From assembly GCA_045545855.1 (NCBI GenBank), contig JAZQBR010000203.1, positions 1,264 to 65,263 of the forward strand: a stretch of 64,000 bases of DNA. Reading direction: 5' to 3'. The stretch's first letter is position 1. Each line of letters opens with the position of its first letter. This DNA comes from Kiritimatiellia bacterium (lineage in GTDB: Bacteria > Verrucomicrobiota > Kiritimatiellia > RFP12 > UBA1067). Of the stretch, positions 32,860 through 58,446 are shown piece after piece. The position numbers and the translations under genes were made by a program. Under the pieces are notes generated by a model. It was not told where the DNA came from. It saw only the letters and a list, made by a program, of their open reading frames with translations, and did no database searches.

Positions 32860-32860
32860 A

Positions 32861-35196: not shown

Positions 35197-35606
35197 CTCT
35201 TGCCTCCAAGCAATGCAGGACAAAATCTCAATATTGCGACAGAAGCAACCCAGCTGACGCATATAGTCGCAAACATAATGCCGCAAAGCAGAATCGCAAG
35301 ACTTCCGCCAGTCAGGATGCATCCAGATGGCAATAAGCGGACGGACGCGACGATGATGAATTTATGCAATAGCATTATTCCGAGCGAACATTCCCCTATG
35401 CGCTTCCAAAGTGGATTCGAGAGGCATCCCGCGATGCCGGCAGACAGCGCAGCGCCGACAAGTCCGGACATCCATGCGATGTAACTGAACATAATCCTGT
35501 TAGACCAACCATTATCGTGCAACCAGTTAACCGACATGGCCACAGCCACAATGACAGGCACCCCAAGCATGCTCCACATCCCCCGGCAAACGACTTGCAT
35601 CATATC
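35193..35606 (-). CDS. Possible small polytopic membrane protein downstream of wzy (start uncertain; may be an acyltransferase C-terminal remnant)
   Basis: The listed ORF 35193..35912 overlaps the wzy-like gene by ~190 bp. Its distal 135 aa (MMQVVCRGMWSMLGVPVIVAVAM...IMLLHKFIIV...) are strongly hydrophobic. Confidence 0.25.
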   Translation of the reverse strand, partial: DMMQVVCRGMWSMLGVPVIVAVAMSVNWLHDNGWSNRIMFSYIAWMSGLVGAALSAGIAGCLSNPLWKRIGECSLGIMLLHKFIIVASVRLLPSGCILTGGSLAILLCGIMFATICVSWVASVAILRFCPALLGGKR

Positions 35607-35722
35607 CTTCTCGTCAGACGCGATTGCGGTAATTCGTCCAACGAAGTAGAAGGACAGCCACCTCGGCAGCACCACAAGCGTGATGAGCAATCCTTTATAT
35701 GCGTCTATCGAAGCATTCTTCT

Positions 35723-39332: not shown

Positions 39333-40507
39333 AAGCGGACCATCCTTTTTAGTTTCCCCTCCATCCGTTTGAATAGGGTCGGGCGAGGATCAAGTTTCGC
39401 GCAGATATTGCGGACTGACATCCCCGCCTTGACAAGTTCGACCGTATTCGATCTGTTCGGCGGACGGCTCAACGATTCACACATGGAGGGATTTACTTTC
39501 AATGCCGTTTCCATGTTTGATTCGCGCCATATCGTATCGCCGACAATTTTCTTCCACATGGTGCGTCCTGATTCCGTATGGACGACAACAAGCGATACAC
39601 CCTTGTCATCGTCAAAATCGGGCATCGAGCGATGAACGTTCCAGAAATCGCCGAGCGTGACGTCTGCGCCGCTTCCACCGCCTTCCTTGGCGGCACAACG
39701 GTAACACGATTCACGCTGCCACAAATGGCTCATCATTGCTCGGTAGAACACGGCTGATTTCGTGCTGTTGCCATTCTCATCGACATATTGGACTCGAGCC
39801 GTCGAACGTGCACAACATCCAGCATTCCATCCGTTGTCCTTGTTGCGAAACACAACTTCGCCGTGTCCATTCCACCCGCATTCTTCTCCGGCGAGCGCAA
39901 GCGTCTTTGAAGAAAGGCATCCCATGCAGATTACCTCCGCAAGGAGAAGCCGTTTAGGCTTGCATCCGAGAAAAGCCAACAACCCGGCTATTTGGCACGG
40001 CGTTCCGGTAAACAATACGTCGCGGCCCTCGACAATACGTTCTTTCACACGTCCGTATATCGCCCCGGCAAACGCCTGTACGTACTTAGAACCTCGCATC
40101 GATGCTATTCCATTGGAATCCGTCGTCTGCGCATAAACGGCTTTGCCAGAAACGGCATCCCAGACCACGCCGAAAACAACCCCGCCATTTCGCAAAGTCT
40201 CCTCCGCCATCAGAGAAAACACACCACCAGAAGAACTCTTCAGGCGCAATAAATCGTCGTTAGCCTTAACGGCATATACATGACATGGGGCATCTGCGGT
40301 TTCGTTCTGAGTCGGAGGTTTGTGCAGAACCGGGCAAGACTTTGCGCATCGCCCGCAATTGATGCAACGGCTTTCATCGATGGCTGGATAGGCAAACCCC
40401 AGTTCATCTTCAACCCACTTGGTTGCAGCTTGCGGACATACAGCAGAACAGACCCCGCATCCTGTGCAGTGCAGATTGTCGGCAAGTTGTATCGTCGTTT
40501 TGTTCAT
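39329..40507 (-). CDS. Coenzyme F420 hydrogenase/dehydrogenase beta-subunit-like Fe-S protein (usual partner of pyruvyl transferases)
   Basis: Two 4Fe-4S ferredoxin motifs (CTGCGVCSAVCP and CINCGRCAKSCP) in the N-terminus. About 390 aa from MNKTTIQLAD. Overlaps the pyruvyl transferase start. Confidence 0.55.
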   Translation of the reverse strand: MNKTTIQLADNLHCTGCGVCSAVCPQAATKWVEDELGFAYPAIDESRCINCGRCAKSCPVLHKPPTQNETADAPCHVYAVKANDDLLRLKSSSGGVFSLMAEETLRNGGVVFGVVWDAVSGKAVYAQTTDSNGIASMRGSKYVQAFAGAIYGRVKERIVEGRDVLFTGTPCQIAGLLAFLGCKPKRLLLAEVICMGCLSSKTLALAGEECGWNGHGEVVFRNKDNGWNAGCCARSTARVQYVDENGNSTKSAVFYRAMMSHLWQRESCYRCAAKEGGGSGADVTLGDFWNVHRSMPDFDDDKGVSLVVVHTESGRTMWKKIVGDTIWRESNMETALKVNPSMCESLSRPPNRSNTVELVKAGMSVRNICAKLDPRPTLFKRMEGKLKRMVRL

Positions 40508-40526
40508 GACTGTAAACCGCTTCTCT

Positions 40527-41807
40527 TCAACTCTCCAGCAACGATACCTTGCGGTTACCATGCGTAAGCAAATTCAGCAGATGGATGAAACGCATTTTCC
40601 ATTTCCTGTACCATAAAATGCGTGGCAGATGATGTGCGACAAAGAAACCCTCGCCTCTGCGCAGTTCGCGGATGAGGCGGTCATAATTCTCTTTCGTCTC
40701 AAATTGTCGTGCATGTTCTTCAGCATAGGGGAGCAGATTGCCACCATCATCTTTCTCCAGTACGGCAAAGAACGACCTCCACCTCCCGCTGAGATTCAAT
40801 GACGTGGCTTTTTCCGTCACGGATTGCCGAGCCGCACTTCCCAGCTTTAAAATCCGTTCTGGATTCTTTAGCAGCGCAATTGTTGCATCGGCAAGTTTCT
40901 TGGCATCATCTGCAAGCACCACACCGTCCGAATCGGACAGCCCTTCCAAAACAGGCATCCGCAAAGCCACGGTCGGCACACCGCAAGCTTGCGCCTCAAG
41001 AATTACCTGCGGTACGGTTACTTCCAGCAAGGACGTGAAAATGTGCAACGCGGACTTGCCTAGTCTATCTCGCACGTTCGGTTCATATCCAACAATGTCT
41101 ATCACCTTGCGCACTTCTGCAGGGACGAAAGCAAGATACCGATTCTTCTGTTTAGGCGTAATGGTACCCAAGACTGTCAGTCGTGCATCAGGGCATTGTT
41201 CGTAGATTAGGACAAATGCCTCCAACGCCAGCTGAAAACGCTTGGCTTCATCCGTCGGCCGTCCAACCCAGACAATATTTCTGCCATGCCCGTAAGAATG
41301 TATGCCCTGCATTTCGTCCGCGACTGGATTTGGGATAAAGAACGTCTCGCGCTTGACACGCCGCCACCATATCGCCTGCATCGGGTCGACGCAAACAAGA
41401 GCGTCAATCATCGGCATATAGGCATCCATGTCATAATCGGAATGATTGCAAAGCGAGTACGTCCAGTTGTTCACCACATGGTGCAGAATTACGCAGACAC
41501 GAACATTTTTTAGCGTATGAACCAATTTTATGGCATTTTTGAACCGAGGTATCGCCCATGAGCCATTGAAAACCGCGATGTCAAATCCATATTTCTGGTG
41601 TAAGACACCAATTGTCTTGGCATCCAGCCGCTCATAATCAAGATGTTCCCGTGCGATGCACGAATGGTCAAATTCACCATCAAACTTCGGCTGCATCGTG
41701 AAGAACACGCATTTCATCCCCAATGTCGACCAGAGGCGCGAAAGCGTGGTTATGACACGTTCCGTTCCTCCATTATGCAGACAGCGGGTAAAGATCGCTA
41801 CGTTCAT
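40527..41807 (-). CDS. Glycosyltransferase, GT4 family
   Basis: MNVAIFTRCLHNGGTERVITTL... N-domain and ...LEVTVPQVILEAQACGVPTVALRMPVLEG C-domain. Confidence 0.7.
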   Translation of the reverse strand: MNVAIFTRCLHNGGTERVITTLSRLWSTLGMKCVFFTMQPKFDGEFDHSCIAREHLDYERLDAKTIGVLHQKYGFDIAVFNGSWAIPRFKNAIKLVHTLKNVRVCVILHHVVNNWTYSLCNHSDYDMDAYMPMIDALVCVDPMQAIWWRRVKRETFFIPNPVADEMQGIHSYGHGRNIVWVGRPTDEAKRFQLALEAFVLIYEQCPDARLTVLGTITPKQKNRYLAFVPAEVRKVIDIVGYEPNVRDRLGKSALHIFTSLLEVTVPQVILEAQACGVPTVALRMPVLEGLSDSDGVVLADDAKKLADATIALLKNPERILKLGSAARQSVTEKATSLNLSGRWRSFFAVLEKDDGGNLLPYAEEHARQFETKENYDRLIRELRRGEGFFVAHHLPRILWYRKWKMRFIHLLNLLTHGNRKVSLLES

Positions 41808-42004
41808 TTACTTCTCTCGTTTTTCAATCTACATATTGCGCCAGAGCAACAACTAACGACAAGCGCCTTGGCTAAACGATCGCTACGGCTGGCGTTTCTA
41901 TGACATGGCGTCAAAGACACAATGCCACAAGGCTTGCTCAAAGGGTGCGCAGGGTTTGTGGTAAAGGGTACGCAGGTTTTACATCAAACACTGCGCAGGG
42001 ATAG

Positions 42005-43714
42005 TCAATTGTTTAGGGCTTCCATCTTCGGCTTTATGCGCTTCCAATGGCGGTTGACGACATTTGTAAACGTGTGAAGATTCTTGTACGCCCCGCGATT
42101 GGGATGTTCGGACTTCCAGCCGTCGTACACCTGTTTTGCAATGGCATTGACGTCAATGCCGCCAGGGTTTTTCTTTGCCTTTTCTTCAAGCTTGTCCATC
42201 GCGAACTTAAGCATTTCAGGATACTTGACCATCGGTCCCCGCCTTTTGGAATCAACCTGGGATGGCGTATCTTGCTCTGCCTTGATGAACTTGATGTCCT
42301 TGCCTTGCTGAAGCTGGGTGCGCCGTATCATGTCCTGCTTGTCGGCCATGCGGGAAACCATTGCATGGGTCTTGAAGCAAATCTCCGCAATCTCAGGATC
42401 TATTGCCGATCCGACGGAACTGTTGCCGAGAGACGGTTCTTTGCCCCTCGCATGAAGCCCGTTTTCATAATATCCAAGGCTCAAGTCAAACTCCGTCATG
42501 CTGCCCATGAATCTGTCATAGGCATCGCCGACAGGCTCCATCATGAAATACCCTTGCCCGACGACTCCCATCATCTTTCCAAAATAGCCGTTGCAACTGC
42601 ATTGCAACGAACGCAGCCACGACAACACTTCCGCAGGGAGATTGAAGTGCTCAAGCAATTCAAGGAGGTTGGAGAAAAGACCATGCGCGCTTTCGACAAG
42701 GTTCCCGTGCATTGATGAGAAGTCATTATCCATCTCATAGAAAGAAGCGTGCAACACCTCTATTGCCCTGCGCAAGAAGGAACACTTGTCAAACACATTG
42801 AACAGACGAATCTTGGGAATCTGCAAGTCCTCGCCTCTAAAGAACTTTTCCGTATTCTTTACGTCCTCAATGGCAAGACATGTCGAGAACTGCAAAACTA
42901 TTGCCGACAGCTCCATGCAACGGATTGCCGCATCGCCGCTGAACTCCGCTTCAAGCAGCCGCTCTTCAACCATTGCATAGCGATTTGAATGTGGCGTTTC
43001 CCGTAAGCGATTCTTGCGGAAATCATCAAAAGAACCGTATGCATAGGCAGAATCCAGTTCATCCTCATAGTCTCGCATGGCTTTGTTCATCTTGCCAAGC
43101 GACTCGTTTACGACGAATGCCCACACTCTGAAAATGATGGGGACTTCGCTCTCATGCACCCATTCCCATTCGCAGAACAGCGTGACAAGAAACCGCAAAT
43201 GGCAGAATGCCCTCCTGATCATGGACGGCGGATACCAATATCCAAGCCACATTTGCAATTCCTGAAGCAAAGAATCGGTCAACATATAAAGCCGATTGGG
43301 ATTGTCTGCGTAACGCTTTTTCGCAATTTGAAACTCCGCTTGCGACGATTCATCGGCGAGAAGCCATATCGCCTTGCCAACAATCCCCTGCGGAGCGAAC
43401 AAATCACTTGGGCGTTCCTCTCCCATATTAAACGGCCCCGCGCCAACAAGCGGTCTATGCGCCGTCAAAAGATTCTCCTCGAAACTGCGCAGAACGGCAA
43501 GCGCAAAACCTTCCAACCCGTGTTTCGCCACACCGCCGCCGGTTTTGCAGCAGGAGTTTATTCCAGCCCGCAACTTGGCAAAATCCGAATCCGCAGACCG
43601 AATCGTCCTCTCGAACGCAGTCACGCCAGCCGGCTCCATGTCCGTAGCAATCATTTTACAGTCATGTCGGCAAGTGCGGCCCGACATAGCCGATGTATAA
43701 CTTCTTGGCGTCAA
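42005..43714 (-). CDS. Hypothetical protein (569 aa), last gene of a four-gene defence-like operon
   Basis: Long ORF with coding composition and no recognised motif. Overlaps the upstream gene by ~50 bp. Confidence 0.5.
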   Translation of the reverse strand: MTPRSYTSAMSGRTCRHDCKMIATDMEPAGVTAFERTIRSADSDFAKLRAGINSCCKTGGGVAKHGLEGFALAVLRSFEENLLTAHRPLVGAGPFNMGEERPSDLFAPQGIVGKAIWLLADESSQAEFQIAKKRYADNPNRLYMLTDSLLQELQMWLGYWYPPSMIRRAFCHLRFLVTLFCEWEWVHESEVPIIFRVWAFVVNESLGKMNKAMRDYEDELDSAYAYGSFDDFRKNRLRETPHSNRYAMVEERLLEAEFSGDAAIRCMELSAIVLQFSTCLAIEDVKNTEKFFRGEDLQIPKIRLFNVFDKCSFLRRAIEVLHASFYEMDNDFSSMHGNLVESAHGLFSNLLELLEHFNLPAEVLSWLRSLQCSCNGYFGKMMGVVGQGYFMMEPVGDAYDRFMGSMTEFDLSLGYYENGLHARGKEPSLGNSSVGSAIDPEIAEICFKTHAMVSRMADKQDMIRRTQLQQGKDIKFIKAEQDTPSQVDSKRRGPMVKYPEMLKFAMDKLEEKAKKNPGGIDVNAIAKQVYDGWKSEHPNRGAYKNLHTFTNVVNRHWKRIKPKMEALNN

Positions 43715-44645
43715 AATCAGGCAGAAAATGCATTCTTTCTTTGATATTCAATCTCAAATGGGGCCAACAATCGCGGCGCACTCCATTCCAATGGAATGTA
43801 CGGGAATTGGGATATTGATGTTTTGTTGAATCGCTCTCATCCATTATCAAAGACTTTGTCGAACCGTATTCTTTCCGCAAATCGCGAGATCCGCCATTCA
43901 GGCATATCTCAAATGCAGAATGCAATCTTATCAGGTCGCCGACCAGATGCCCGTTGGCTACATCAAAAGCAGGCAATTGCGCTATCACTTCGTCAGAAAA
44001 CGACAGATACGGCCACAAGTTTTCGCAGACATCCAATATTGCCTGTCCGGAATGAACTTCTTTGACAATCCTTTGGGTTACAGGATCGCTAAATAATTCT
44101 GCTCCCGCCCCAGTGGCAACGACATCGACAGCCTCCTGCCTTATGTCAATTTCGCCACTCTCGAGCAACTCGTGCTTTTCGAGCAAAAACCCGCCCCCCA
44201 TGGAAAAGCGTCCGACATTGAGAGCAATGGACGGCAAGCGATTTAGATACGACAACAAGAATGCAGGTATATATGTTGATCCGCCGCCATATATCTGCTC
44301 GCCTTCAAAAAACAAATCAAAATCGCAATAGCCGACAAAAGAATCCGGAGCCTCTTCGAACGCAGGCGTTTTTGACATTGCAATCTTGAAGAAGCCCTTG
44401 AGCATTCGTTCTTGCGAATTCAATGCATTTTTGTCAAACAGCCACTTTCGAAATGTAGTTCCCGAATAACACACCCGTTCATATATGCCATGCGATTTGG
44501 CTACAGCGTACGAAAAACCGATTCTATTCATGGCGTCCATCACACACTTAAGCTCCTGCATCCTGGACAGAAACTCTTCGTGCGAGACACAAGCCACAAA
44601 GGACAACTCATTCAAAATCTGAGGATATGGAATCCTTAACGCCAT
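43662..44645 (-). CDS. Hypothetical protein (327 aa)
   Basis: Long ORF, 17 bp downstream of the ATPase gene. Gly-rich loops (YGGGSTYIP, SMGGGF). No family recognised. Confidence 0.5.
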   Translation of the reverse strand: MALRIPYPQILNELSFVACVSHEEFLSRMQELKCVMDAMNRIGFSYAVAKSHGIYERVCYSGTTFRKWLFDKNALNSQERMLKGFFKIAMSKTPAFEEAPDSFVGYCDFDLFFEGEQIYGGGSTYIPAFLLSYLNRLPSIALNVGRFSMGGGFLLEKHELLESGEIDIRQEAVDVVATGAGAELFSDPVTQRIVKEVHSGQAILDVCENLWPYLSFSDEVIAQLPAFDVANGHLVGDLIRLHSAFEICLNGGSRDLRKEYGSTKSLIMDESDSTKHQYPNSRTFHWNGVRRDCWPHLRLNIKERMHFLPDFDAKKLYIGYVGPHLPT

Positions 44646-44661
44646 CTATAAACCCTGAATA

Positions 44662-45801
44662 TCAAATCAACTCGGCAATCGTATTCTCGTATTCATCAAA
44701 GAACCCCTCCGGCCAAACATCTATCGCGCCCGACTGAAGTATGCGCGGAGTGGCGATTTCGACATCCCTCTCGCTATCGCCCTTGGCGACAAAATTCAAT
44801 CTGACATCCGTGCCGCGCACGATGTCCTTCTTCACGGCAAGCCTCATGCCATTCAAAATATGATCGCTATGCGTCTCTACAACAACCTGTATGCCATTTG
44901 CCGCAACTTTTGAAAGGAACATTCCCATGGCTACCTGTCCCTTAGGATGAAGATGCGCCTCTGGATTTTCAATCAGCGCCAGACCTCCTTTCGGCAATGC
45001 AAGCAGAGCGACAAATATGGGGAGCGAATATGTCAATCCAAAACCTACATTTGAGGGACTATAGTCCAGTCCATAACCGTCTTCGCCCTCAAGAAAGGAA
45101 AAGGCCAGCCATGCACTCTGCTGCCGTTCGTTCATATCGGCAGACACTCTCATCTGCCGTCCCATCTTGCTCATCCATGCAGACACTTGCTGGATGAGCG
45201 AGTCGCCGTAAATGCCGTCCTGATCTGCAAGCAATTCCGGTATATGGAGTTTCGACAACTGTCTGTCGGCGAGATGCCATGCGCAAAACTCTCCCTGATT
45301 GCCAAGAAAGTTAAGGCGGGCCTCTTCCGGCGTTGGTGCTTTGAAGTTCGTCCGAGGACCGACTCGATCAGCGCACAGGTAGGCGAAATCTTCTGAGAAC
45401 AGGGGAAGCGACCTGTCTGTCGCCGACAACGTCTCGATTTCAAGAATCTGCTTCTGGATACGCATAGGCGCGTCGGTTTCATGCCGATACGCAGACAATT
45501 CCGCTTGTGCGGCCCCGCAATCGAACTCCACTGAAACCGCCACATTGCCATGTGCGCTGTTTATTCTGCCATAGGCATACAACAAATCATCGACCTGTCC
45601 GAACGAAACAAGACGCCCGTTTACAGGAAGCAGGGAATCGCCTTCGCGCCGTTCAAGCATCGACTGCCGCAAAAACAACAAGGCCTGCAACACCGTGCTC
45701 TTTCCTACTGCATTCATGCCAGCGAAAACGGTCAATGGAGCAAAATCCAATTCCGCCTCACGATAACATTTGAAGTTGCGCAGCTTAAGCTTGCTAACCA
45801 T
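44662..45801 (-). CDS. AAA_15/AAA_21-type ATPase (SMC/ABC-like split Walker motifs; DUF3696-like C-terminus)
   Basis: Walker A AGMNAVGKSTVLQAL. Walker B/H-loop LALIENPEAHLHPKGQ...VVVETHSDHIL. Overlaps the DUF262 gene by 8 bp. Confidence 0.7.
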   Translation of the reverse strand: MVSKLKLRNFKCYREAELDFAPLTVFAGMNAVGKSTVLQALLFLRQSMLERREGDSLLPVNGRLVSFGQVDDLLYAYGRINSAHGNVAVSVEFDCGAAQAELSAYRHETDAPMRIQKQILEIETLSATDRSLPLFSEDFAYLCADRVGPRTNFKAPTPEEARLNFLGNQGEFCAWHLADRQLSKLHIPELLADQDGIYGDSLIQQVSAWMSKMGRQMRVSADMNERQQSAWLAFSFLEGEDGYGLDYSPSNVGFGLTYSLPIFVALLALPKGGLALIENPEAHLHPKGQVAMGMFLSKVAANGIQVVVETHSDHILNGMRLAVKKDIVRGTDVRLNFVAKGDSERDVEIATPRILQSGAIDVWPEGFFDEYENTIAELI

Positions 45802-47074
45802 TTAAAGTCTCCTCTATGATCTGACGAACAGCACCAAACCGCTTGTGAACGCGTGCGACGGAACCCGTCCCCTGTGTTACAGATTGCAGAAATTCATTGT
45901 CGTTGGACATCTTCGCCCTGAAGCGTTCTATCAAGACATCTTTGCGCGCCAGAAGAACTTCCCGCTCTGTCGGCGTCAACCGGTGCAGATTCACGCTCCA
46001 CGCCTCAAACAGCGACTTGTTTACCGGGCTGCGCGTCTGCCGGCCGACATCCATCTTTCTGAAAGCCAACTTCCCCAGAAGGTCATGCGCATAGCGCATC
46101 GTGCATGTAAACTCGTCTATTATCGCACGAATGGGCGCACTGTCCAATGTCTGTCCGGCATGGACTTCATTGAATGAACGCATCGCGTCGTTGAGAAAAC
46201 TGTTGTAGTCGTTCTTCCTGTAATCGGAAATGTCTATGTCTTTGAAGGCGAGATACCGCATGATACACTCTCTGTCTGCCATGCGCTTTGCCTGAATGCC
46301 GTTCATTGTCGCTTCTTTGAAGGCGTCGCTTTCAGAAAGATGCTTGAGCAACATCGTGCATATGCCCATGTTCAAGGCATGGCGAATTTCCTGCGGGCTC
46401 AAGGGTTCGCCTCCTGTATTGATGCGCCGGAAGATATCGAATTTGACTCGTGGCGGCGTTCCTGGCAATATGATGTAGCATACGACCTCCGTCTCGTCGA
46501 TTCGTCGTTGCAGGGATGGCGGAAGCTGTGAATAAGTTTTGCCCTCCATGTTGTGAAGGAATTCAAGCCCGGTCAACTTCAGTTCCCCGTTGACGAAATC
46601 GCGTATCGTCGAAAGTCGCTGCAAACCATCGATGACAAGCCAGCGGTCGTCGTCCGATGCGTCAAAGTAGAAAGCCGGTATCGGTATGCGGATCAGCAAC
46701 GATTCTATAAGCCGGCTTTTGGCGACCTTGGACCAAACGCCTTCGTTCCGCTGAAAATCGGGATGTAGTTCAATCGCATTGGATTTTATCCTGCGCAGCA
46801 ACAAATCCAGAACCGTTGTCTTTGGCTGCACCTGTATGAACGCTGGATTGAACGGTTCGTCTATTCGCGTACCGCCCTCCGAATCATCTTCGATGGACTC
46901 GTCCTCTTCCTGAAAAGAAACGGCTGCTTTCCCCTTTTCTTCATCTGTTTCAAGATATTCCATAAATCTGCTCCCGCTATCGTTTTTCTTGGACTTGGAT
47001 TCTGTGGTCAGGACAAGCCATTTGTCAGTAACATCCTTTTTCCGCATTCCAAGTCCGTTGTCTCGGATATGCAA
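45794..47074 (-). CDS. DUF262 (ParB/GmrSD-N-like) domain protein; likely 3' portion of a frameshifted GHKL-DUF262 fusion gene
   Basis: DUF262 hallmarks PDFQRNEGVWSKVAKSRLIESLLIRIPIPAFYF...VIDGLQRLSTI. The N-terminus begins HIRDNGLGM, a GHKL G1-box. The ORF track start is TTG. Confidence 0.65.
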   Translation of the reverse strand: MHIRDNGLGMRKKDVTDKWLVLTTESKSKKNDSGSRFMEYLETDEEKGKAAVSFQEEDESIEDDSEGGTRIDEPFNPAFIQVQPKTTVLDLLLRRIKSNAIELHPDFQRNEGVWSKVAKSRLIESLLIRIPIPAFYFDASDDDRWLVIDGLQRLSTIRDFVNGELKLTGLEFLHNMEGKTYSQLPPSLQRRIDETEVVCYIILPGTPPRVKFDIFRRINTGGEPLSPQEIRHALNMGICTMLLKHLSESDAFKEATMNGIQAKRMADRECIMRYLAFKDIDISDYRKNDYNSFLNDAMRSFNEVHAGQTLDSAPIRAIIDEFTCTMRYAHDLLGKLAFRKMDVGRQTRSPVNKSLFEAWSVNLHRLTPTEREVLLARKDVLIERFRAKMSNDNEFLQSVTQGTGSVARVHKRFGAVRQIIEETLNG

Positions 47075-47292
47075 AAAACAAAACTTCGCTCTTTAGTCCC
47101 ATCATTTTCAGCAGGGAGTGTATAGTTTATCCAAACGTCACTTGCCCCGGCGCCCAATGAATTCTTGAACAATTCGCCCTCCGCCGTCGGCGCATCAGCT
47201 ATCTGCTGACGTCCCAACAGGTCTATCACGCGCGCACGGCTTCTAAAATGGGCAGTTGCCATTTGCTCCAACCTTTTCCAATAGAGATGCAA
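47008..47292 (-). pseudogene. 5' fragment encoding a GHKL/MutL-MORC-like ATPase N-box, out of frame with the DUF262 ORF
   Basis: ...IADAPTAEGELFKNSLGAGASDVWI... matches the GHKL N-box (ELVENSLDAGA in MutL) about 37 aa upstream of the IRDNGLGM G1-box in the next ORF. The frames differ by 1 nt across an A6 run at about 47073..47078. A7 would give ...SFVFLHIRDNGLGM... Confidence 0.4.
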
Positions 47293-47641
47293 AATATTAT
47301 ACCATTTCGCTGAAGTCCGGTCAATGGGACGCGAAACAGTTTATTGCTTCAAACTGTTGCATTGTTTTCCCGCACAAGATCAATCTCTAACTTGTTCAAC
47401 GCACATTCCCACGAGAGCATAATCCCTCCCGAAAACTTTCCGCAACAGTTTTCCTGTTGCATGGCGCGACAATGACGCATGGTCAGGCAGATTGTCGCGC
47501 GTTGCAGATGTGACACATTTTCCGTTCTCCACGACTTTCCAATGACCGCCTCGGGGCTGGCCGGGAAAGTCTCGGTTGACGCTGTCGGCCAGACCTGACG
47601 GCAATGAACAGAACAACACAATCCCGAAAGGAACCCGGAAA

Positions 47642-48106
47642 ATGGAAACAACACGGAACAAAGACAATCGCGGCTATGAGCTTGACGCCCTTGCCCGAAA
47701 AATGGAACGCGCCGCAGAAGTTGATTATATCCGCTGGGCGAACGCAAAGAAACGCCGCGCATGGACTGCCGGGGCATTGCGTCTCGACGACTGCCTGTTC
47801 GATGAAAACGGGGATGAGAGGGAAAACTCCCTGCTTTCCGACAACGGCAGAGGTGCCGAGTTGATTCGCCGCTGCGGGGAACCTGCGCCAAAGGCGAACA
47901 ATGCTTGGCGTAAGGAGTTCCGCCGCGTATTTTCGACCCTGAACGCTGTCGAGCAAGGCATTGTCCTCGCGTTGTCGAAGGATTCCCGCCCTCAAGTCGC
48001 CGCCCGCATGGCCTGGACGAACCGCATGCGCGTATATCGCACCATCGCGAAATTGCGCAAATTGCTCGCAACCGCCCATTCCCTCTGGCTGCGCCGCTGG
48101 GAATAA
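47642..48106 (+). CDS. Putative DNA-binding regulator with sigma-70 region-4-like HTH
   Basis: Internal ATG of ORF 47576..48106 (METTRNKDNRGYELDALARKMERAA...). C-terminal EQGIVLALSKDSRPQVAARMAWTNRMRVYRTIAKLRKLL resembles a region-4/LuxR-type HTH. Higher GC than neighbours. Confidence 0.35.
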   Translation: METTRNKDNRGYELDALARKMERAAEVDYIRWANAKKRRAWTAGALRLDDCLFDENGDERENSLLSDNGRGAELIRRCGEPAPKANNAWRKEFRRVFSTLNAVEQGIVLALSKDSRPQVAARMAWTNRMRVYRTIAKLRKLLATAHSLWLRRWE

Positions 48107-48242
48107 AAAACTTTCGCAGATGCCGCGTTGCACATCTCTCGGTTTCTGCGATTGTCAAATGAACACCTCTGTCGGCGATGCAGGACGCCAGGTGGCATCC
48201 CGCCGGCGAGGTTGAAGAAAGCACAAATAAAGGAATAAAGTT

Positions 48243-48977
48243 ATGGCTGCTGTTAAGCCTCAATTGAAATACCGCGTCGTCAATGGCTACAACCCAAAGA
48301 CGCGCGGAACCTGCAAGCGCCCCCAGATCACGGAACGCGAAACCTACTACCTCGATCAGGTGGTGCAATTCGCGCTGGACAACGGATTCGTCCGTGGCCA
48401 GTTCCAGGACATGAAGGGTGCGCTCAACGGGTTCATCGAATGCATCCAGTACCTCGGGCTGACCGGCAAGGCCGTCTCGCTCAACGACTGGCTCAGAGTC
48501 CATTCCGAACTCACGGGAACGGTCGGCGAAGACTACCAGCTCACGTCCGGCAACGACTTGCGCGTCCGCATCCAGGCTCTCAAGGAACTGAAGACGAGCG
48601 TGGACAAGTTCAGCTGGACGAACGTGAGCGACACGGGCGTTCTGCCGAAGATCGATTCGCTCATGTACGTTGGCGCTCCGAAAAGCGGTGAAATCAAGAA
48701 GTCTCTGGCCATCATCGCCACGGGACGCAATCTTGCGTTCAACGCCGCCTTGGGCGACACCGTGACGCTTATCTGGACGGAAGGCGACGAGGCCAAAACC
48801 GTTACCCTCACGCCTGCCGAGAGCGACTATTCGCACATGAAGTTCAACTGGCCGTCTGCATTGGCTGACGTGCCGGACGGAACCGAAATTACGTTCACCT
48901 TCACTCTCCACGGCGGAGTGGAAGGAGGCGCGGCCCATACGGCCACGAAAAGCGTGAAGCTTCTCGCTGCCGCATAA
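48243..48977 (+). CDS. Hypothetical protein (244 aa)
   Basis: Clean ORF with strong codon bias. The antisense 579-aa ORF 47349..49088 is an artefact of this high-GC block. Confidence 0.55.
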   Translation: MAAVKPQLKYRVVNGYNPKTRGTCKRPQITERETYYLDQVVQFALDNGFVRGQFQDMKGALNGFIECIQYLGLTGKAVSLNDWLRVHSELTGTVGEDYQLTSGNDLRVRIQALKELKTSVDKFSWTNVSDTGVLPKIDSLMYVGAPKSGEIKKSLAIIATGRNLAFNAALGDTVTLIWTEGDEAKTVTLTPAESDYSHMKFNWPSALADVPDGTEITFTFTLHGGVEGGAAHTATKSVKLLAAA

Positions 48978-48986
48978 GCTAATTAT

Positions 48987-49061
48987 CTCACGCAAAGTCC
49001 GTGACGTACGCAAAGTTTCATCCCTCAGGCGCCTTTGCGTCTTTAGCGGACTTTGCGTGAG
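48987..49061. repeat. Palindromic element of ACGCAAAG units (tctcacgcaaagtccg...cgcaaag ... ctttgcgt...cggactttgcgtgag), 10 bp after the stop codon
   Basis: Perfect 15-bp outer inverted repeat and inner CGCAAAG/CTTTGCG pairs. No downstream U-tract. Confidence 0.5.
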
Positions 49062-49100
49062 CGATCTATCCATACCACCAACCACCAACGACTAACGACC

Positions 49101-49784
49101 ATGAAAACTATCGTCAAAAAAGTAAAGTTGCTTCCCTGGTCCAACCCCTATATCACCGACGGCCTCATCGCCATGTGGGATGGCGAATGGAACGCAGGCA
49201 TCGCCAAGCATGATCCCACTGCAACGACTTGGACCGACCTCGTCAACGGGTGCGTCGGCATCAAGGCCGCTGACACTGTGCAATGGCTCGACAAGGCCTG
49301 TTTTGTCGATAACGGATACTTCATTGTCGAAACGCTCCCTGATTCCATCAAAGACGCCATGAACGCCGACAACTTCACATGGGAAGTCTGCAGATACTAC
49401 AGAGGCGGCAACGGCCAATACACGGCCCTCGGCTCGGCTGCGGTGCGAAACGAGTTCTGGGCGAGCGGCCCGAACAACGCCAACTCCTACCTTTCGTGGC
49501 ATTCGCCATCTTTTACGAGCTACTGCGGCGGTGGCGGAGGAAAAGTCAAAACTACGCATTCTTTCACTGTTTGCGGCGATACAATCATTGGCTACAGCAG
49601 GGGTGTTCCGTATGCAACCCAGACTTTCACTGCAATCGGTTCTATCGACGCGGCAAGACTCCTGCTCGGCGGCAAGCGCGGCATCGTTGCCGACATCTAC
49701 TGCATTCGCATATACAACCGCGCCCTCTCAACCGCCGAAATCGCAGCCAACTTCGCTATCGACAGAATGAGGTTCGACCTGTGA
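49101..49784 (+). CDS. Hypothetical protein (227 aa)
   Basis: Internal ATG (MKTIVKKVKLLPWSNPYITDG...) of ORF 49053..49784, consistent with a beta-rich secreted or structural protein. No motif recognised. Confidence 0.5.
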   Translation: MKTIVKKVKLLPWSNPYITDGLIAMWDGEWNAGIAKHDPTATTWTDLVNGCVGIKAADTVQWLDKACFVDNGYFIVETLPDSIKDAMNADNFTWEVCRYYRGGNGQYTALGSAAVRNEFWASGPNNANSYLSWHSPSFTSYCGGGGGKVKTTHSFTVCGDTIIGYSRGVPYATQTFTAIGSIDAARLLLGGKRGIVADIYCIRIYNRALSTAEIAANFAIDRMRFDL

Positions 49785-49789
49785 GCAAA

Positions 49790-50356
49790 TCACCACTGCT
49801 TTGCCAATACAAAATCTTCGAACTCGGCAGGCGTATATATTTCGAAATTTTTAACCACCTGACCGACTACCGTTCTAGGGTCGTTATTAACGTCAGAGCA
49901 AGATGAATTCATACAATCTGCGACCGACTTCTTCCTAATCTGTTCAAGTCGCTTTTCTACTTCGGCTCCAACAAGAACAAAAGTCAGATGGTGTCTGCAT
50001 TGATCCCATGTGAGAACATTATGTTCGACCAGAGCCATTGCGGAGTCGCATGCCTTGCGAAACGTGTCGGCAATATTAACACCTCCAGTTTTGAACTCAA
50101 TCAAGTAATATTCCAAACCATCGACAATCAATGCATCAGCAGATTTACCCTTAAACACGAATTTACCATCGCGCCAATAATCTTTTACTAAATCAAAATC
50201 AATTGCTTGCACCTTTCCGGCATTTGATGTCGGTGCAACACAATATTTCTTCTCTGCCCCTGGTTTGGCCTTGGTCGCAGACAACTCCGCCAGTGACTTG
50301 CGGAAGTCCTCATTCCGCAAGTCATCAGAAAGTCCATCAAAATCGCTCGGTTTCAA
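49790..50356 (-). CDS. Hypothetical protein (188 aa), third gene of an ATPase operon; possible PD-(D/E)XK-like core
   Basis: Start overlaps the ATPase stop by 4 bp. The segment ALIVDGLEYYLIEFK has a D...ExK-like arrangement (weak). Confidence 0.5.
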   Translation of the reverse strand: MKPSDFDGLSDDLRNEDFRKSLAELSATKAKPGAEKKYCVAPTSNAGKVQAIDFDLVKDYWRDGKFVFKGKSADALIVDGLEYYLIEFKTGGVNIADTFRKACDSAMALVEHNVLTWDQCRHHLTFVLVGAEVEKRLEQIRKKSVADCMNSSCSDVNNDPRTVVGQVVKNFEIYTPAEFEDFVLAKQW

Positions 50357-51684
50357 TTTTGAACTCCATCATCAGCAGAAGACTTTTCCAATTCAGCAAC
50401 ATTCATGCGTTCTAATTCCAGCTCGCGCATGGTTTTTGCGAATTTGCGATACATGCTTGACGTGTCATTTGAAATATCATCAAATTCCACACGCCCTGAA
50501 TCATCAATTTTCTTCGGTTGATAGACCTTGAGAGTTTCGCCTTCGCCATTCTCCGCTCTCTTTTTACGCGCAGAAAGCTCAAGCGACTGCAGAAAATAAG
50601 GACTGTGTGTGGTCACTAGAACAGTCAAATCATATATTCGCTGAAGTTCAACGATTACATCGGCGAACAAAACCTGCAATTCAGGATGAAGATGGTTTTC
50701 CGGCTCATCCAAAATCAAAACGTCCTTCCGCTTCAACAAATTGGCATCTATCATCAAACGCAGCAACGCCAACATTTTTATGCCCATTGAAAGATTGGCT
50801 GAATTAAGAGGCTTCTGCATTCCGGGAATGCCAACTTCCAGTTCTCCGTTTTTGCCTAATGAGAATTCACCGGAGAAATATCCATCAATCATTTCATAGA
50901 TTGTCGCTAATTCCTTATCTGCGACACGACGAGCAATACTACTTCTTGGTCTTGCACGACGAATTCTCGACGCTAATTCTCTGCTTATTGGATCCCCAAT
51001 CGTCCACGAAGACATCCTGAACGATGTTCCCAAGGCATCCATAATTAATGGTGTTCCAATAAACCAAGCATCATTGCGCAAAAACTCTTCAACCACCATA
51101 GGCTGCGCATTGGTATTCCATTTTGCGACAATCTTTCGGCCCTTGACAGTAATCGATATCTCACTCTCACCGGTAAAATCAAAATAGTTGGGAAGAAATT
51201 GATTGTTGAAATAACGATTTAGGTCGGCCTGAACAGCATCGTGAAAGAGAACCATCTCCGAAATTCCACGGGCCTTTTTGATTTGTAATTTTATATCAGC
51301 AACTATATCACGCTCGGAATCCTGCCTCAAGCGCGAAGATTCATCTGCCAAAAAGGAACTCTGCCTGAGGGTTCCAGGCCGATAATAAAAACGCAATCTC
51401 CGCCACAACTCATCATCATCAATAGAGGAATCAGAAGAAAACCATTCATCACGAAATATCCTACGGGTGAGATTTGTATTGCGCAAATTGAGCGATTCAA
51501 GCACAAATCCCGCACGAGCATCGAAAAATCCTTCTTTGAGATTTGCAAAGGTATGAAAAATGGAATACAATACTTTCCCGACCGTGCTTTTGCCCCTGTC
51601 ATTGTCGCCAATGATTGCTGTAAGTCCCTGGCAGACCAAATTTGCATTGCTTATTTTCGCGATATTGTTTATGGTCACATTCAT
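50353..51684 (-). CDS. AAA_15/AAA_21-type ATPase (ABC/SMC-like)
   Basis: Walker A IIGDNDRGKSTVGKVL. Walker B/D-loop VLILDEPENHLHPELQ. H-loop VLVTTHSPYFL. 443 aa. Confidence 0.7.
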   Translation of the reverse strand: MNVTINNIAKISNANLVCQGLTAIIGDNDRGKSTVGKVLYSIFHTFANLKEGFFDARAGFVLESLNLRNTNLTRRIFRDEWFSSDSSIDDDELWRRLRFYYRPGTLRQSSFLADESSRLRQDSERDIVADIKLQIKKARGISEMVLFHDAVQADLNRYFNNQFLPNYFDFTGESEISITVKGRKIVAKWNTNAQPMVVEEFLRNDAWFIGTPLIMDALGTSFRMSSWTIGDPISRELASRIRRARPRSSIARRVADKELATIYEMIDGYFSGEFSLGKNGELEVGIPGMQKPLNSANLSMGIKMLALLRLMIDANLLKRKDVLILDEPENHLHPELQVLFADVIVELQRIYDLTVLVTTHSPYFLQSLELSARKKRAENGEGETLKVYQPKKIDDSGRVEFDDISNDTSSMYRKFAKTMRELELERMNVAELEKSSADDGVQN

Positions 51685-51687
51685 GTC

Positions 51688-52287
51688 TCACCTCCAACCA
51701 TTTTTCGCGACGAAAGCAGCAACTTCATCGTCAAAGAGGACATAAGCCTTCTCACAAATCAACCCTGATAATCGATACTCTTGGGGCGCTCTTTTCTTTC
51801 TTTTTATATCGGAATATTCCCGCAAATCATACTCCCATGCATCTTCTACGAGTCGATCAAGCGATCCTGCCATAAAACTTGTAGGATCCAAAGTCTCAGA
51901 CCGCGCGAACTTGCCGGCATCACGCGAACCAGATTCCCTAATCTGCAGATAGAAGAATCCATGGCGCAATGCACCAACGCGGCATTGCCCAGTTTGGCAC
52001 ATACCTATGACCAAATTGTAGAATCGACGCAACCTATGTATTTGATTGACTGTAGAACAATAGGATTCCACAGCATAAACACCCGCACTGTTTGAATGAA
52101 TTGCCGGGACAGTTTCTCGATGAAATTGATGCGCTGACGGCACCAAGCCCTTAAGATACCCTGATGCATTAATACAGGAAATGGTTGCCAATGCTGCATG
52201 GGACTGCACCCCCAGCGCACCAAATGTCGATGCCAATATTGGGTTTGACAATCCGTACGGAGCCGCACTGAAATCGTTAGGAGTCAT
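51688..52287 (-). CDS. Hypothetical protein (199 aa), first gene of an ATPase operon
   Basis: Ends 4 bp before the ATPase start. Contains Cys at GMCQTGQC. No family recognised. Confidence 0.5.
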   Translation of the reverse strand: MTPNDFSAAPYGLSNPILASTFGALGVQSHAALATISCINASGYLKGLVPSAHQFHRETVPAIHSNSAGVYAVESYCSTVNQIHRLRRFYNLVIGMCQTGQCRVGALRHGFFYLQIRESGSRDAGKFARSETLDPTSFMAGSLDRLVEDAWEYDLREYSDIKRKKRAPQEYRLSGLICEKAYVLFDDEVAAFVAKNGWR

Positions 52288-52585
52288 TGCATTCCACCTT
52301 CAACCTTTTTAGCAATTGCACAGCATACGCCCACAGCGACTGCAATACCACCCCCAAAAAGATGCCAACGCATCCTTCCCACTAACATTTGTCCACATGA
52401 TTGTGGCTCTGCTATGCATATACTCTATCATTGCCAATTGATTTGCCGCATAGTTTACCATTTTTCGTTTTCGCTGACAAGTGGGGCATCGGTTTTTTTT
52501 GCATCCGCGATTGCCACCGAAATCGCTATAACCTCTACCAGCGACGGGATGTGGTTGGCTCTGGCACTTTGACTTATCCATCCGC

Positions 52586-54730: not shown

Positions 54731-54755
54731 TTATGATAGTCCACAAACCAGAGCC

Positions 54756-56860: not shown

Positions 56861-56878
56861 AATACCCCTTTCTTTCGT

Positions 56879-58441: not shown

Positions 58442-58446
58442 TGCAA

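What the first reader, a model, noticed from the sequence alone, without database searches (positions are those of the whole stretch)
45794..47292. DUF262 protein with a MutL/MORC-like GHKL N-terminus split by a frameshift at an A6 run, paired with an SMC-like ATPase
ORF 47008..47292 contains ...AEGELFKNSLGAGASDVWI..., a close match to the GHKL N-box (MutL ELVENSLDAGA). ORF 45794..47074 begins ...HIRDNGLGM..., the G1-box, at the expected ~37-aa spacing, then continues into a DUF262/ParB-like domain (DFQRNEGVW...DGLQRLSTI). The two frames overlap around aaaaaa at about 47073..47078. One extra A gives the continuous reading ...KERSFVFLHIRDNGLGMRKKDV..., reminiscent of MutL LIRIRDNGCGI. Immediately downstream is an AAA_15/21 ATPase (44662..45801) overlapping by 8 bp, followed by two unknown genes. 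A GHKL-DUF262 fusion plus ATPase is not a defence architecture I can name, and the frameshift could be phase variation, a pseudogene or a homopolymer sequencing error.
Basis: partly seen in the sequence, partly recalled or inferred. Interest (0 to 1): 0.6.

Follow-up and report, generated by a model that had tools for sequence, protein, structure and literature searches.

The report
Menshen defence operon beside gene remnant
The apparent GHKL-DUF262 fusion is an ordinary three-gene Menshen anti-phage operon sitting next to the leftover first 95 codons of a different, mostly deleted gene, so it is a deletion scar and not a new defence architecture.

Summary
Two minus-strand ORFs meet at a T6 run (A6 on the + strand, 47073..47078), and one extra T joins them. 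The upstream piece carries a genuine GHKL N-box and G1-box.

The DUF262 protein, the ATPase and the next gene are NsnA, NsnB and NsnC of the known Menshen system (PADLOC E 2.5e-135, 1.5e-97, 3e-26). nsnA has its own start at 46963 (MEYLE…), like its closest homologue. None of the 120 best of 6314 NsnA homologues carries a GHKL domain.

The GHKL piece is the first ~95 codons of a ~985-aa paraMORC-type histidine-kinase-like gene (HATPase_c_3–HEF_HK–HATPase_c). That gene normally precedes a Response_reg_2 gene and a C5 DNA methylase. The closest relative (L082) has kinase–regulator–methylase–nsnABC in that order. The window therefore most likely carries a ~5 kb deletion that removed everything between kinase codon ~95 and the last ~25 nt before nsnA.

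The same deletion is seen in a second assembly, and the same T6 frameshift in two further sequence-distinct assemblies. The remnant accumulates amino-acid changes, including at catalytic N-box residues. Sequencing error and phase variation are therefore unlikely. Interest is low.

The parts
47296..47324 (-). Sigma-70-like promoter, TTGACC-17 nt-TATAAT with an extended TG. It lies 34 nt upstream of the remnant's ATG and is the presumed former promoter of the paraMORC-kinase operon, now the nearest promoter upstream of nsnABC.
   Evidence: 11 of 12 consensus positions, the best site in 41800..47700. This is a consensus match only; function is inferred.
47008..47262 (-). 84-codon remnant ORF as it reads with T6 (MATAHF...LLTNGLS*). 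Codons 1-73 are in the original GHKL frame and the last 11 are out of frame.
   Evidence: P0001. The same 84-aa product is called in two other assemblies, P0136 and P0137.
46972..47262 (-). Full extent of the sequence homologous to the 5' end (about codons 1-95) of a HATPase_c_3–HEF_HK–HATPase_c (paraMORC-type kinase-like) gene, read across the frameshift.
   Evidence: Alignment A1. Full-length homologues of 981-1053 aa with Pfam HATPase_c_3 + HEF_HK + HATPase_c. Homology runs to ...KWLVLTTESKSKKND.
47143..47175 (-). GHKL N-box, ELFKNSLGAGA. The Asp that is conserved in at least 90% of the family is Gly here.
   Evidence: D37 nearly invariant. Sister assemblies have KNSLDAGA (P0137) and KSSLDAGA, with the Mg-binding Asn changed to Ser (P0136).
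47073..47078 (-). T6 homopolymer (A6 on the + strand) where the remnant's frame breaks. T7 would restore the GHKL frame, which by coincidence is also the nsnA frame.
   Evidence: The run is identical in L091 and is implied by the identical 84-aa ORF length in P0137.
47045..47071 (-). GHKL G1-box, HIRDNGLGM (DxGxG), downstream of the frameshift.
   Evidence: D68, G70, G72 and M73 invariant in the family.
46964..46988 (-). Deletion junction zone. These last 25 nt before nsnA are homologous to the 3' end of the C5-methylase gene of L082 and include the nsnA ribosome-binding site GGGAG (46971..46975). GAAAAAC is a possible microhomology.
   Evidence: 19 of 25 nt match L082; homology is lost further upstream. 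(GHKL codons reach ...AAG AAA AAC GAT)..
45794..46963 (-). nsnA (389 aa): Type I Menshen sensor with a ParB-DUF262 domain plus a C-terminal DNA-binding domain. Motifs: FQRNEGVW (46733..46756), DGLQR (46616..46630), FRRINTGG (46409..46432).
   Evidence: PADLOC NsnA E 2.5e-135, profile positions 15-384 of 385. GmrSD_N E 8e-23. Same length and start as P0017, 86% identical. Motif coordinates.
44662..45801 (-). nsnB (379 aa): ABC/SMC-type ATPase with a C-terminal DUF3696. Walker A is GMNAVGKS, Walker B is the 'EN' variant LALIEN, and a HSDH motif is present.
   Evidence: PADLOC NsnB E 1.5e-97. Pfam AAA_15, AAA_21 and DUF3696. Motifs. The EN variant is described for NsnB in PMC12065111.
43662..44645 (-). 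nsnC (327 aa): the predicted Menshen effector (inactive-PIN-like N-domain plus a C-terminal nuclease-type domain in the family). The effector class was not determined here.
   Evidence: PADLOC NsnC E 3.1e-26 over the full length. No Pfam hit. The single-sequence AlphaFold model was unusable, pLDDT 33.
42005..43654 (-). Adjacent 549-aa all-helical orphan gene. It is a conserved flank of the cassette-swapping site, not a Menshen component.
   Evidence: No Pfam or PADLOC hit. It follows a different cassette in L113-L116 and is absent from L082. Only 12 representatives exist in 1.84 billion proteins. The model has pLDDT 79 and no PDB fold match.

Best explanation
Window 43662..46963 is an intact Type I Menshen anti-phage operon.
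- nsnA encodes the ParB-DUF262 sensor.
- nsnB encodes an ABC/SMC-type ATPase with DUF3696, the transducer.
- nsnC encodes the effector.

The GHKL-like sequence just upstream (46972..47262) is not part of NsnA. It is the decaying 5' stump, about 95 codons carrying only the N-box and G1-box, of a paraMORC-type kinase-like gene (HATPase_c_3–HEF_HK–HATPase_c).

In an ancestor arranged like locus L082, that gene was followed by a Response_reg_2 gene and a C5 cytosine methylase, and then by nsnABC. One deletion of about 5 kb, possibly at the short repeat GAAAAAC, removed the rest of the kinase-like gene, the regulator gene and nearly all of the methylase gene. This placed the old promoter and stump directly in front of nsnA.

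A one-base loss in a T7 run (now T6) and amino-acid changes at catalytic residues are further decay of the stump. NsnA is translated from its own ribosome-binding site and its ATG at 46963.

How the system works is taken from the family literature and was not tested here. NsnA binds and senses foreign DNA and hydrolyses NTP. NsnB transduces the signal. NsnC degrades nucleic acid.

What is shown: the homologies, the gene orders, the shared deletion and frameshift in independent assemblies, and the substitution pattern. What is inferred: the single-deletion history, the use of the old promoter, and the Menshen mechanism.
For: 1. Identity of the operon. PADLOC gives NsnA E 2.5e-135, NsnB 1.5e-97 and NsnC 3.1e-26. 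DUF262, AAA_15/21 and DUF3696 are found by Pfam.
2. Native nsnA start. The closest homologue, P0017 (86% identical, 389 aa), begins MEYLESEDEKK, which matches window MEYLETDEEKG. A GGGAG sits 7 nt upstream. The 120 best NsnA homologues listed are mostly 371-407 aa, and none has PF13589.
3. Origin of the stump. It is 55-67% identical to the N-termini of 981-1053-aa proteins with HATPase_c_3 + HEF_HK + HATPase_c. All 16 loci that extend far enough show the order kinase-like gene, Response_reg_2, C5 methylase. The family's G2-box (GEKGIGRL) and everything after it are absent from the window. tblastn finds no regulator, methylase or kinase C-terminus anywhere in the 64 kb.
4. Ancestral arrangement. 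L082 has kinase C-terminus, regulator, methylase and nsnABC in that order, with the methylase stop overlapping the nsnA start. It shares the downstream flank with this lineage. Window-L082 DNA homology begins 25 nt before the nsnA ATG, inside the 3' end of the methylase gene.
5. The frameshift is not an error. L091 carries the same deletion junction and the same T6 run. P0137, from a 558-bp contig, carries the same 84-aa frameshifted ORF. Both differ in sequence from the window.
6. Decay of the stump. Window versus L091 differences are 6 non-synonymous and 0 synonymous in the stump, against 26 and 34 in nsnABC (Fisher p = 0.01). In nsnA the counts are 5 and 11, and in nsnB 7 and 16. The stump changes include D37G, N34S and R9C.
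7. Promoter. The best sigma-70-like site in the region lies 34 nt upstream of the stump's ATG.
Against: - The 5' end of the kinase-like gene of the L082 lineage was not available, because the contig ends inside the gene. The direct ancestor of the stump has therefore not been seen.
- The junction can only be placed within about 17 nt (46972..46988).
- L082 is only 73% identical at the DNA level, and it is the only locus found with both systems adjacent.
- The substitution counts are small. In the corrected GHKL frame they are 5 non-synonymous to 1 synonymous, p = 0.09.
- With T7 the stump would be in frame with nsnA. A past or rare fusion product cannot be formally excluded.
- The NsnC fold and effector class were not verified.
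- No read-level data were available.
Confidence: 0.82

Rival explanations
1. A true GHKL-DUF262 fusion gene, meaning a new Type II-like Menshen whose NsnA has an N-terminal MORC/MutL-like ATPase sensor. It would be recently broken by a frameshift or mis-assembled at a homopolymer.
For: One extra T gives a single 489-aa frame containing an N-box, a G1-box and DUF262. About 23% of NsnA proteins do carry extra N-terminal sensor domains (PMC12065111).
Against: - Only about 95 residues of GHKL are present, with no G2-box or lid.
- No homologue among the 120 best NsnA hits has PF13589, and no GHKL is among the 33 N-terminal families catalogued.
- The closest NsnA starts at MEYLE.
- The stump's family is a ~985-aa kinase-like protein.
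- The same T6 run occurs in three distinct assemblies.
- Catalytic N-box residues are mutated.
Confidence: 0.03
2. Phase variation or programmed -1 frameshifting at the T6 run switches between native NsnA and a stump-NsnA fusion as a regulatory device.
For: A homopolymer lies exactly at the frame change, and the two frames are compatible. Contingency loci are common in defence genes (general knowledge).
Against: - All three assemblies have T6.
- Six bases is short for efficient slippage (general knowledge).
- GTT TTT TGC is not a canonical X XXY YYZ slippery heptamer (read from the sequence).
- The stump shows no purifying selection, 6 non-synonymous to 0 synonymous changes.
- nsnA has its own ribosome-binding site and start.
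Confidence: 0.03
3. The stump arose when a Menshen cassette was inserted into, or replaced part of, a resident kinase-like gene. It did not arise by an internal deletion of an L082-like array.
For: The segment 43623..47429 behaves as a swappable cassette. L113-L116 carry a different three-gene cassette between the same flanks. Only one locus (L082) shows the two systems adjacent.
Against: - No 3' part of the kinase-like gene lies beyond the cassette or anywhere in the window.
- The 25 nt before nsnA match the methylase 3' end of L082. This is expected for an internal deletion but not for an independent insertion.
- L082 shares the downstream flank.
Confidence: 0.1
4. The 84-aa ORF is a functional small protein, such as a regulator or leader peptide of the operon.
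For: It keeps a promoter, a Shine-Dalgarno-like AAGGTTGGAG and an ATG. It is present at the same length in three assemblies.
Against: Every difference between strains is non-synonymous, including changes at former catalytic positions. It has no homologues other than fragments of the long GHKL gene.
Confidence: 0.03

Closest known systems
Menshen anti-phage system (NsnA-NsnB-NsnC), Type I, as dissected by Li et al., Nucleic Acids Res 2025 (PMC12065111). The prototype is from Solibacillus silvestris StLB046.
   Same: - Three co-oriented genes in the order A-B-C.
- NsnA has ParB-DUF262 motifs and the C-terminal domain, with no extra N-terminal domain.
- NsnB has Walker A GxxxxGKS, the 'EN' Walker B variant and DUF3696.
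- NsnC matches the NsnC profile over its full length.
- The operon neighbours, or neighboured, a methylase, as do 27.9% of Menshen operons.
   Different: - Nothing architectural differs.
- This copy is preceded by a gene stump that gene callers merge into nsnA (417-aa call, P0016).
- The NsnC effector class is undetermined.
- No activity data exist.
paraMORC-related two-component-like system: HATPase_c_3–HEF_HK–HATPase_c protein, Response_reg_2 protein and C5 DNA methylase (Bellieny-Rabelo et al., Genome Biol Evol 2021, PMC8011034).
   Same: The stump is 55-67% identical to the first ~95 residues of these proteins, including the family-specific LLGRQQIA and KWLVL motifs, the N-box and the G1-box.
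   Different: Only about 10% of the gene survives, and it is frameshifted. There is no G2-box, HEF_HK domain or C-terminal HATPase_c. No Response_reg_2 gene and no methylase gene occur in the window. This is a relic, not a member system.
MutL, PMS2, MORC and Hsp90 GHKL (Bergerat-fold) ATPase domains.
   Same: The N-box (E..N..DA) and G1-box (DxGxG) are recognisable. The family profile hits MutL at E 4e-7.
   Different: The stump lacks the second half of the fold and cannot form an ATP-binding domain. It has no MutL or MORC C-terminal modules.
Type II Menshen (NsnA with added N-terminal sensor domains) and other DUF262 defence proteins (GmrSD, SspE, DndB).
   Same: They share the DUF262 sensor logic, and N-terminal additions to NsnA do occur in nature. 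PNP_UDP_1-NsnA fusions were seen.
   Different: Here the N-terminal addition is not translated with NsnA and is not a complete domain. There is no DUF1524 nuclease domain as in GmrSD and SspE.

Membership tests
Menshen (NsnABC) | NsnA: ParB-DUF262 domain with motifs I (QR...W), II (DGxQR) and III (FxxxN), plus the C-terminal NsnA-C/ParBDB region. | tested here: met
   FQRNEGVW, DGLQR and FRRINTGG are present. GmrSD_N E 8e-23. The PADLOC NsnA profile is covered at positions 15-384 of 385, E 2.5e-135. Motif I has four rather than three residues between QR and W, as in its close homologues.
Menshen (NsnABC) | NsnB: ABC-type ATPase (AAA_15/AAA_21) with Walker A, an EN-type Walker B and C-terminal DUF3696. 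| tested here: met
   AAA_15 2e-24, AAA_21 1.1e-18 and DUF3696 3.6e-7. NsnB 1.5e-97. GMNAVGKS, LALIEN and HSDH are present.
Menshen (NsnABC) | NsnC: third gene, with an inactive-PIN-like N-domain and a C-terminal nuclease-type effector domain. | tested here: inconclusive
   The PADLOC NsnC profiles match over the full length (E 3.1e-26 and 6.2e-26). The fold could not be checked: single-sequence AlphaFold gave pLDDT 33 and there is no Pfam hit.
Menshen (NsnABC) | Compact co-oriented A-B-C operon. | tested here: met
   nsnA and nsnB overlap by 8 nt, and the nsnB-nsnC gap is 16 nt. The same order is seen in L082 and L084-L091.
Menshen (NsnABC) | Protects against phage infection. | not testable with these tools
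   This needs plaque assays. Purifying selection on nsnA (5 non-synonymous, 11 synonymous) and nsnB (7, 16) suggests the genes are kept functional.
GHKL/Bergerat-fold ATPase (functional domain) | All four motifs: N-box, G1 (DxGxG), G2 (GxxGxG) and motif IV with the lid, in one reading frame. | tested here: not met
   Only the N-box and G1 are present, and they are split by a frameshift. The family's GEKGIGRL G2-box has no counterpart. The Pfam match covers positions 9-71 of 137 and scores below the cut-off. The N-box Asp is changed to Gly.
paraMORC-type HEF_HK two-component-like system | HATPase_c_3 + HEF_HK + HATPase_c protein with an adjacent Response_reg_2 gene, usually with a C5 methylase. 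| tested here: not met
   The window has only the first ~95 codons. tblastn at E 1e-10 finds no HEF_HK or C-terminal part, no regulator and no methylase in 64 kb. Intact systems are seen in L007, L004, L092-L110 and L117.
Type II Menshen (NsnA with N-terminal sensor domain) | The extra domain is encoded in the same ORF as DUF262 and recurs in homologues. | tested here: not met
   The frame is broken at T6 in three assemblies. No GHKL-NsnA is found among the listed homologues or in the published catalogue.
Phase-variable contingency locus | Homopolymer length differs between closely related strains or reads. | tested here: not met
   T6 is found in the window and L091, and the identical ORF length is found in P0137. 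Read-level heterogeneity is not testable here.

The most novel reading that the evidence does not exclude
The deletion may be a natural knock-out bearing on an open question about Menshen.

In the L082-type ancestor the C5 methylase stop overlaps the nsnA start, so the methylase and Menshen were probably co-transcribed and translationally coupled. Li et al. (2025) ask whether such methylases mark self DNA for the DUF262 sensor.

This lineage lost the methylase, together with the paraMORC kinase-like and regulator genes. It nevertheless kept nsnA and nsnB intact under purifying selection across at least two diverged strains.

One reading is that this Menshen does not need the neighbouring methylase for self-tolerance. 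The more novel alternative is that it did need it, and that survival required a compensating change or a second methylase elsewhere in the genome.

A smaller possibility is that the retained stump and promoter are what keep nsnABC expressed.
Probability: 0.12. Interest if true: 0.45.

Novelty: new member of a known kind. Interest (0 to 1): 0.15.

Why it matters
It matters mainly as a caution. A domain 'fusion' inferred across a frameshift can be a deletion scar between two neighbouring defence systems. Automatic gene callers here already extend nsnA into the stump (417 aa instead of 389 aa).

It also documents turnover inside a defence hot spot that is embedded in a surface-polysaccharide locus. 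A methylase-linked paraMORC two-component-like system was lost while the adjacent Menshen operon was kept. In sister strains a different ATPase cassette occupies the same site.

The natural loss of the methylase next to a retained Menshen gives a cheap experimental handle on whether Menshen depends on neighbouring methylases.

Tried and rejected
- **Exact look-up of the 84-aa remnant product (P0001).** No record was found. The source record and organism were not identified. The nearest relatives are Kiritimatiellae and Verrucomicrobiota MAGs.
- **Flank synteny with 80 GTDB loci carrying the GHKL family.** None was found; only the stump matched.
- **Scan of metagenome contigs for a closer intact copy of the kinase-like gene.** The best hit was 67% identical, and none had nsnABC downstream.
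- **Idea that the stump's homology runs on into MEYLETDEEKG (compare W.EF..EQ.KW).** Rejected, because P0017 shows this is the native NsnA N-terminus.
- **Idea that the short GHKL proteins in the database (P0003, P0006 and others) are independent truncations at a recombination hot spot.** Rejected. In L117, P0006 is a frameshift-split full-length gene followed by the regulator and methylase genes. P0003 likewise lies on a short contig with an overlapping ORF directly downstream.
- **Idea that the 569-aa ORF is a fourth Menshen gene.** Rejected. It follows a different cassette in L113-L116 and is absent from L082.
- **Structure of NsnC from a single sequence.** Unusable, pLDDT 33.
- **tRNA and Rfam scans of the window.** Nothing found.
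- **My first nsnA coordinate.** It was off by one base (46964), which gave a wrong-frame query. It was corrected to 46963. The NsnA rows should be ignored.


Full report
**1. What is in the sequence**

All genes of interest are on the minus strand.
- ORF 47008..47292 is 94 aa from a TTG. It more plausibly starts at the ATG at 47262, giving 84 aa beginning MATAHF, preceded by AAGGTTGGAG.
- ORF 45794..47074 is 426 aa.
- The two ORFs overlap at a T6 run at 47073..47078, which is A6 on the + strand.
- Inserting one T produces a continuous 489-aa reading...KERSFVFLHIRDNGLGMRKKDV....

**2. The downstream genes are a known system**

PADLOC profiles identify three genes:
- The DUF262 protein is NsnA, E 2.5e-135. 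Residues 115-488 of the conceptual fusion cover profile positions 15-384 of 385.
- The ATPase at 44662..45801 is NsnB, E 1.5e-97.
- The gene at 43662..44645 is NsnC, E 3.1e-26 over its full length.

Pfam agrees, with GmrSD_N at 8e-23 and AAA_15, AAA_21 and DUF3696 in the ATPase.

NsnABC is the Menshen anti-phage system. Li et al. (NAR 2025, PMC12065111) describe NsnA as a ParB-DUF262 sensor with a DNA-binding C-domain, NsnB as an ABC-ATPase transducer with an 'EN' Walker B and DUF3696, and NsnC as an inactive-PIN plus nuclease effector. The window copy has FQRNEGVW, DGLQR and FRRINTGG in NsnA, and GMNAVGKS, LALIEN and HSDH in NsnB.

**3. NsnA does not include the GHKL piece**

- A search with the whole conceptual fusion returned 6314 NsnA homologues. 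The 120 best listed are mostly 371-407 aa and none has PF13589. The exceptions are the window's own 417-aa call, two of 428 and 486 aa, and three ~640-aa nucleoside-phosphorylase fusions.
- The closest homologue, P0017 (86% identical, 389 aa), begins MEYLESEDEKKLPEAAFREEDESIDDDSENG. This aligns residue for residue with window MEYLETDEEKGKAAVSFQEEDESIEDDSEGG.
- The native start is thus the ATG at 46963, with GGGAG 7 nt upstream. That gives a 389-aa Type I NsnA.
- The published catalogue of 33 N-terminal NsnA domain families contains no GHKL domain.

**4. What the GHKL piece is**

The first ~95 residues of the conceptual fusion have strong homologues.
- phmmer E values reach 1e-33 and all hits are PF13589 proteins.
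- tblastn gives E down to 2e-33 in 468 genome loci.
- The family profile hits the MutL, PMS2 and Hsp90 N-domains at 4e-7.

The MutL/MORC-like reading of the motifs is therefore right.

The full-length homologues are 981-1053 aa. They have an N-terminal HATPase_c_3, a long helical region, a HEF_HK domain (PF19191) and a C-terminal HATPase_c. Each is followed by a Response_reg_2 (PF19192) gene and a C5 cytosine methylase in all 16 loci that extend far enough. This is the paraMORC-related two-component-like system described by Bellieny-Rabelo et al. (GBE 2021, PMC8011034).

In the window, homology covers only the N-box and G1-box and ends at ...KWLVLTTESKSKKND.
- The family's G2-box (GEKGIGRL) and everything after it are missing.
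- Pfam HATPase_c_3 covers positions 9-71 of 137 and scores 24.9 bits against a cut-off of 25.
- No regulator, methylase or kinase C-terminus exists anywhere in the 64 kb.

**5. How the two came to be adjacent**

The contig carrying the closest NsnA is L082 (ENA ERZ27297813). Its gene order is: C-terminal 221 aa of the kinase-like gene (cut by the contig end), a Response_reg_2 gene (481 aa), a C5 methylase (356 aa), then nsnA, nsnB and nsnC. The methylase stop overlaps the nsnA start by 14 nt.

L082 also shares the downstream flank with this lineage.
- 83 nt after nsnC match window 42028..41946.
- Its next gene is 77% identical to the gene downstream in sister strain L091.

DNA homology between the window and L082 runs through nsnABC. 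It continues for 25 nt upstream of the nsnA ATG, with 19 of 25 matching, into what in L082 is the 3' end of the methylase gene. It then stops. On the other side, the GHKL codons run to AAG AAA AAC GAT.

The simplest history is one deletion of roughly 5 kb. It would run from codon ~96 of the kinase-like gene to about 15-25 nt before nsnA. The breakpoint lies within 46972..46988, and GAAAAAC is shared by both parents as a possible microhomology.

The single-deletion history is inferred. The exact ancestor was not available.

A comparable microhomology deletion (GCCTGTT, 1.5 kb) is seen nearby in L091.

**6. Error, switch or decay?**

The protein cluster of the 84-aa product contains two further, sequence-distinct members from independent assemblies, P0136 and P0137. 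L091 (ENA ERZ12302851, 34.8-kb contig) is 95% identical to the window over 47800..41889. It carries the same junction and the same T6 run. A homopolymer sequencing error is therefore unlikely, and there is no length polymorphism to suggest phase variation.

Differences between the window and L091:

| Region | Non-synonymous | Synonymous |
|---|---|---|
| Stump | 6 | 0 |
| nsnA | 5 | 11 |
| nsnB | 7 | 16 |
| nsnC | 14 | 7 |

- Fisher's exact test for the stump against nsnABC combined (26 to 34) gives p = 0.01. In the repaired GHKL frame the stump counts are 5 to 1, p = 0.09.
- The stump changes hit former catalytic positions. The window has N-box Asp changed to Gly. L091 has the Mg-binding Asn changed to Ser. 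P0137 keeps the ancestral KNSLDAGA.

The stump is therefore evolving without constraint, while nsnA and nsnB remain under purifying selection.

That T7 would put the stump in frame with nsnA has a one-in-three chance of being coincidence. A minor fusion product cannot be excluded, but nothing supports a role for one.

**7. Expression (inferred)**

The best sigma-70-like site in 41800..47700 is TTGACC-17-TATAAT with an upstream TG. It lies at 47324..47296, 34 nt before the stump's ATG. The deletion probably left the old operon promoter driving nsnABC. The stump ORF would then act as a translated leader ending 44 nt before nsnA.

**8. Genomic setting**

The block 43623..47429 (promoter, stump and nsnABC) behaves as one cassette.
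- In L113-L116 the same flanks enclose a different three-gene cassette of 316 aa, a 364-aa AAA_15/21 ATPase and 194 aa. The flanks are the 176-aa and 244-aa + strand genes on one side and the 549-aa orphan on the other.
- The whole site lies inside a surface-polysaccharide biosynthesis locus. So do other Menshen copies in Kiritimatiellae MAGs.
- The 549-aa gene after nsnC is therefore a flank, not a Menshen component. It is a rare all-helical orphan with 12 representatives in 1.84 billion proteins, a model of pLDDT 79 and no PDB fold match.

**9. Verdict**

The proposed GHKL-DUF262 architecture is not real. The locus is a Type I Menshen operon (a new member of a known kind) preceded by a frameshifted, decaying 5' remnant of a paraMORC-type kinase-like gene. 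The remnant was left when that gene's system and its methylase were deleted.

Interest is low. The one point worth a follow-up is that the lineage is a natural methylase knock-out next to a retained Menshen.

Noticed in passing
window 42005..43654 (-): A 549-aa all-helical orphan gene lies directly after nsnC. It has no Pfam or PADLOC hit. Only 12 representatives exist among 1.84 billion proteins, and the pLDDT-79 model has no PDB fold match. It diverges much faster between strains (87.8% nt identity) than nsnABC (~98%). It sits next to different defence cassettes in different strains.
   Followed up: partly
window 43623..47429 versus L113 7183..10032 (also L114-L116): This is a cassette-swapping hot spot. 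Sister strains have a different three-gene cassette (316 aa, a 364-aa AAA_15/21 ATPase, 194 aa) between the same flanking genes where the window has the stump plus nsnABC.
   Followed up: partly
window 49790..52287 (-): A second, lower-GC block (~43% against ~50%) holds a 443-aa AAA_15/21 ATPase (50353..51684) flanked by unknown 188-aa and 199-aa ORFs. It has only weak PADLOC hits (AriA, HEC-02A, PD-T4-4_A, mad3-like). It may be another defence cassette.
   Followed up: no
window 47800..49287, compared with L091 8984..9480: L091 lacks this 1.5-kb segment. Its junction fuses the 176-aa and 243-aa + strand genes at the 7-nt microhomology GCCTGTT. This is a second small deletion of the same kind in this region.
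   Followed up: partly
window 47576..49784 (+): Three divergently oriented genes lie in a higher-GC stretch (~57%): 176 aa, 244 aa and 243 aa (the last with a weak Laminin_G_3/concanavalin-like hit). Their function is unknown. The first two are conserved in L113-L116.
   Followed up: no
window 41946..42004: The intergenic sequence after the orphan gene contains CCTGCGCA (once as CCTGCGTA) three times within ~60 nt. It is conserved (78%) in L082 immediately after nsnC.
   Followed up: no
proteins P0098, P0103, P0128: NsnA homologues of ~640 aa carry an N-terminal PNP_UDP_1 nucleoside-phosphorylase domain. This is a real N-terminal fusion to NsnA, unlike the one proposed for the window.
   Followed up: no
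window 30000..41800 and 52500..59200: The defence cassettes are embedded in a large surface-polysaccharide locus containing glycosyltransferases, two polysaccharide pyruvyl transferases, an FrhB-like Fe-S protein, a flippase-like protein and UDP-glucose dehydrogenase. Menshen copies in Kiritimatiellae MAGs (L084-L090) sit in similar loci.
   Followed up: partly
L117 550..3492; L001 4931..6429: The paraMORC-type kinase-like gene and its methylase are also split into two ORFs in other public assemblies. These are frameshifts or assembly errors, and they explain why the protein database returned only short N-terminal fragments for this family.
   Followed up: partly
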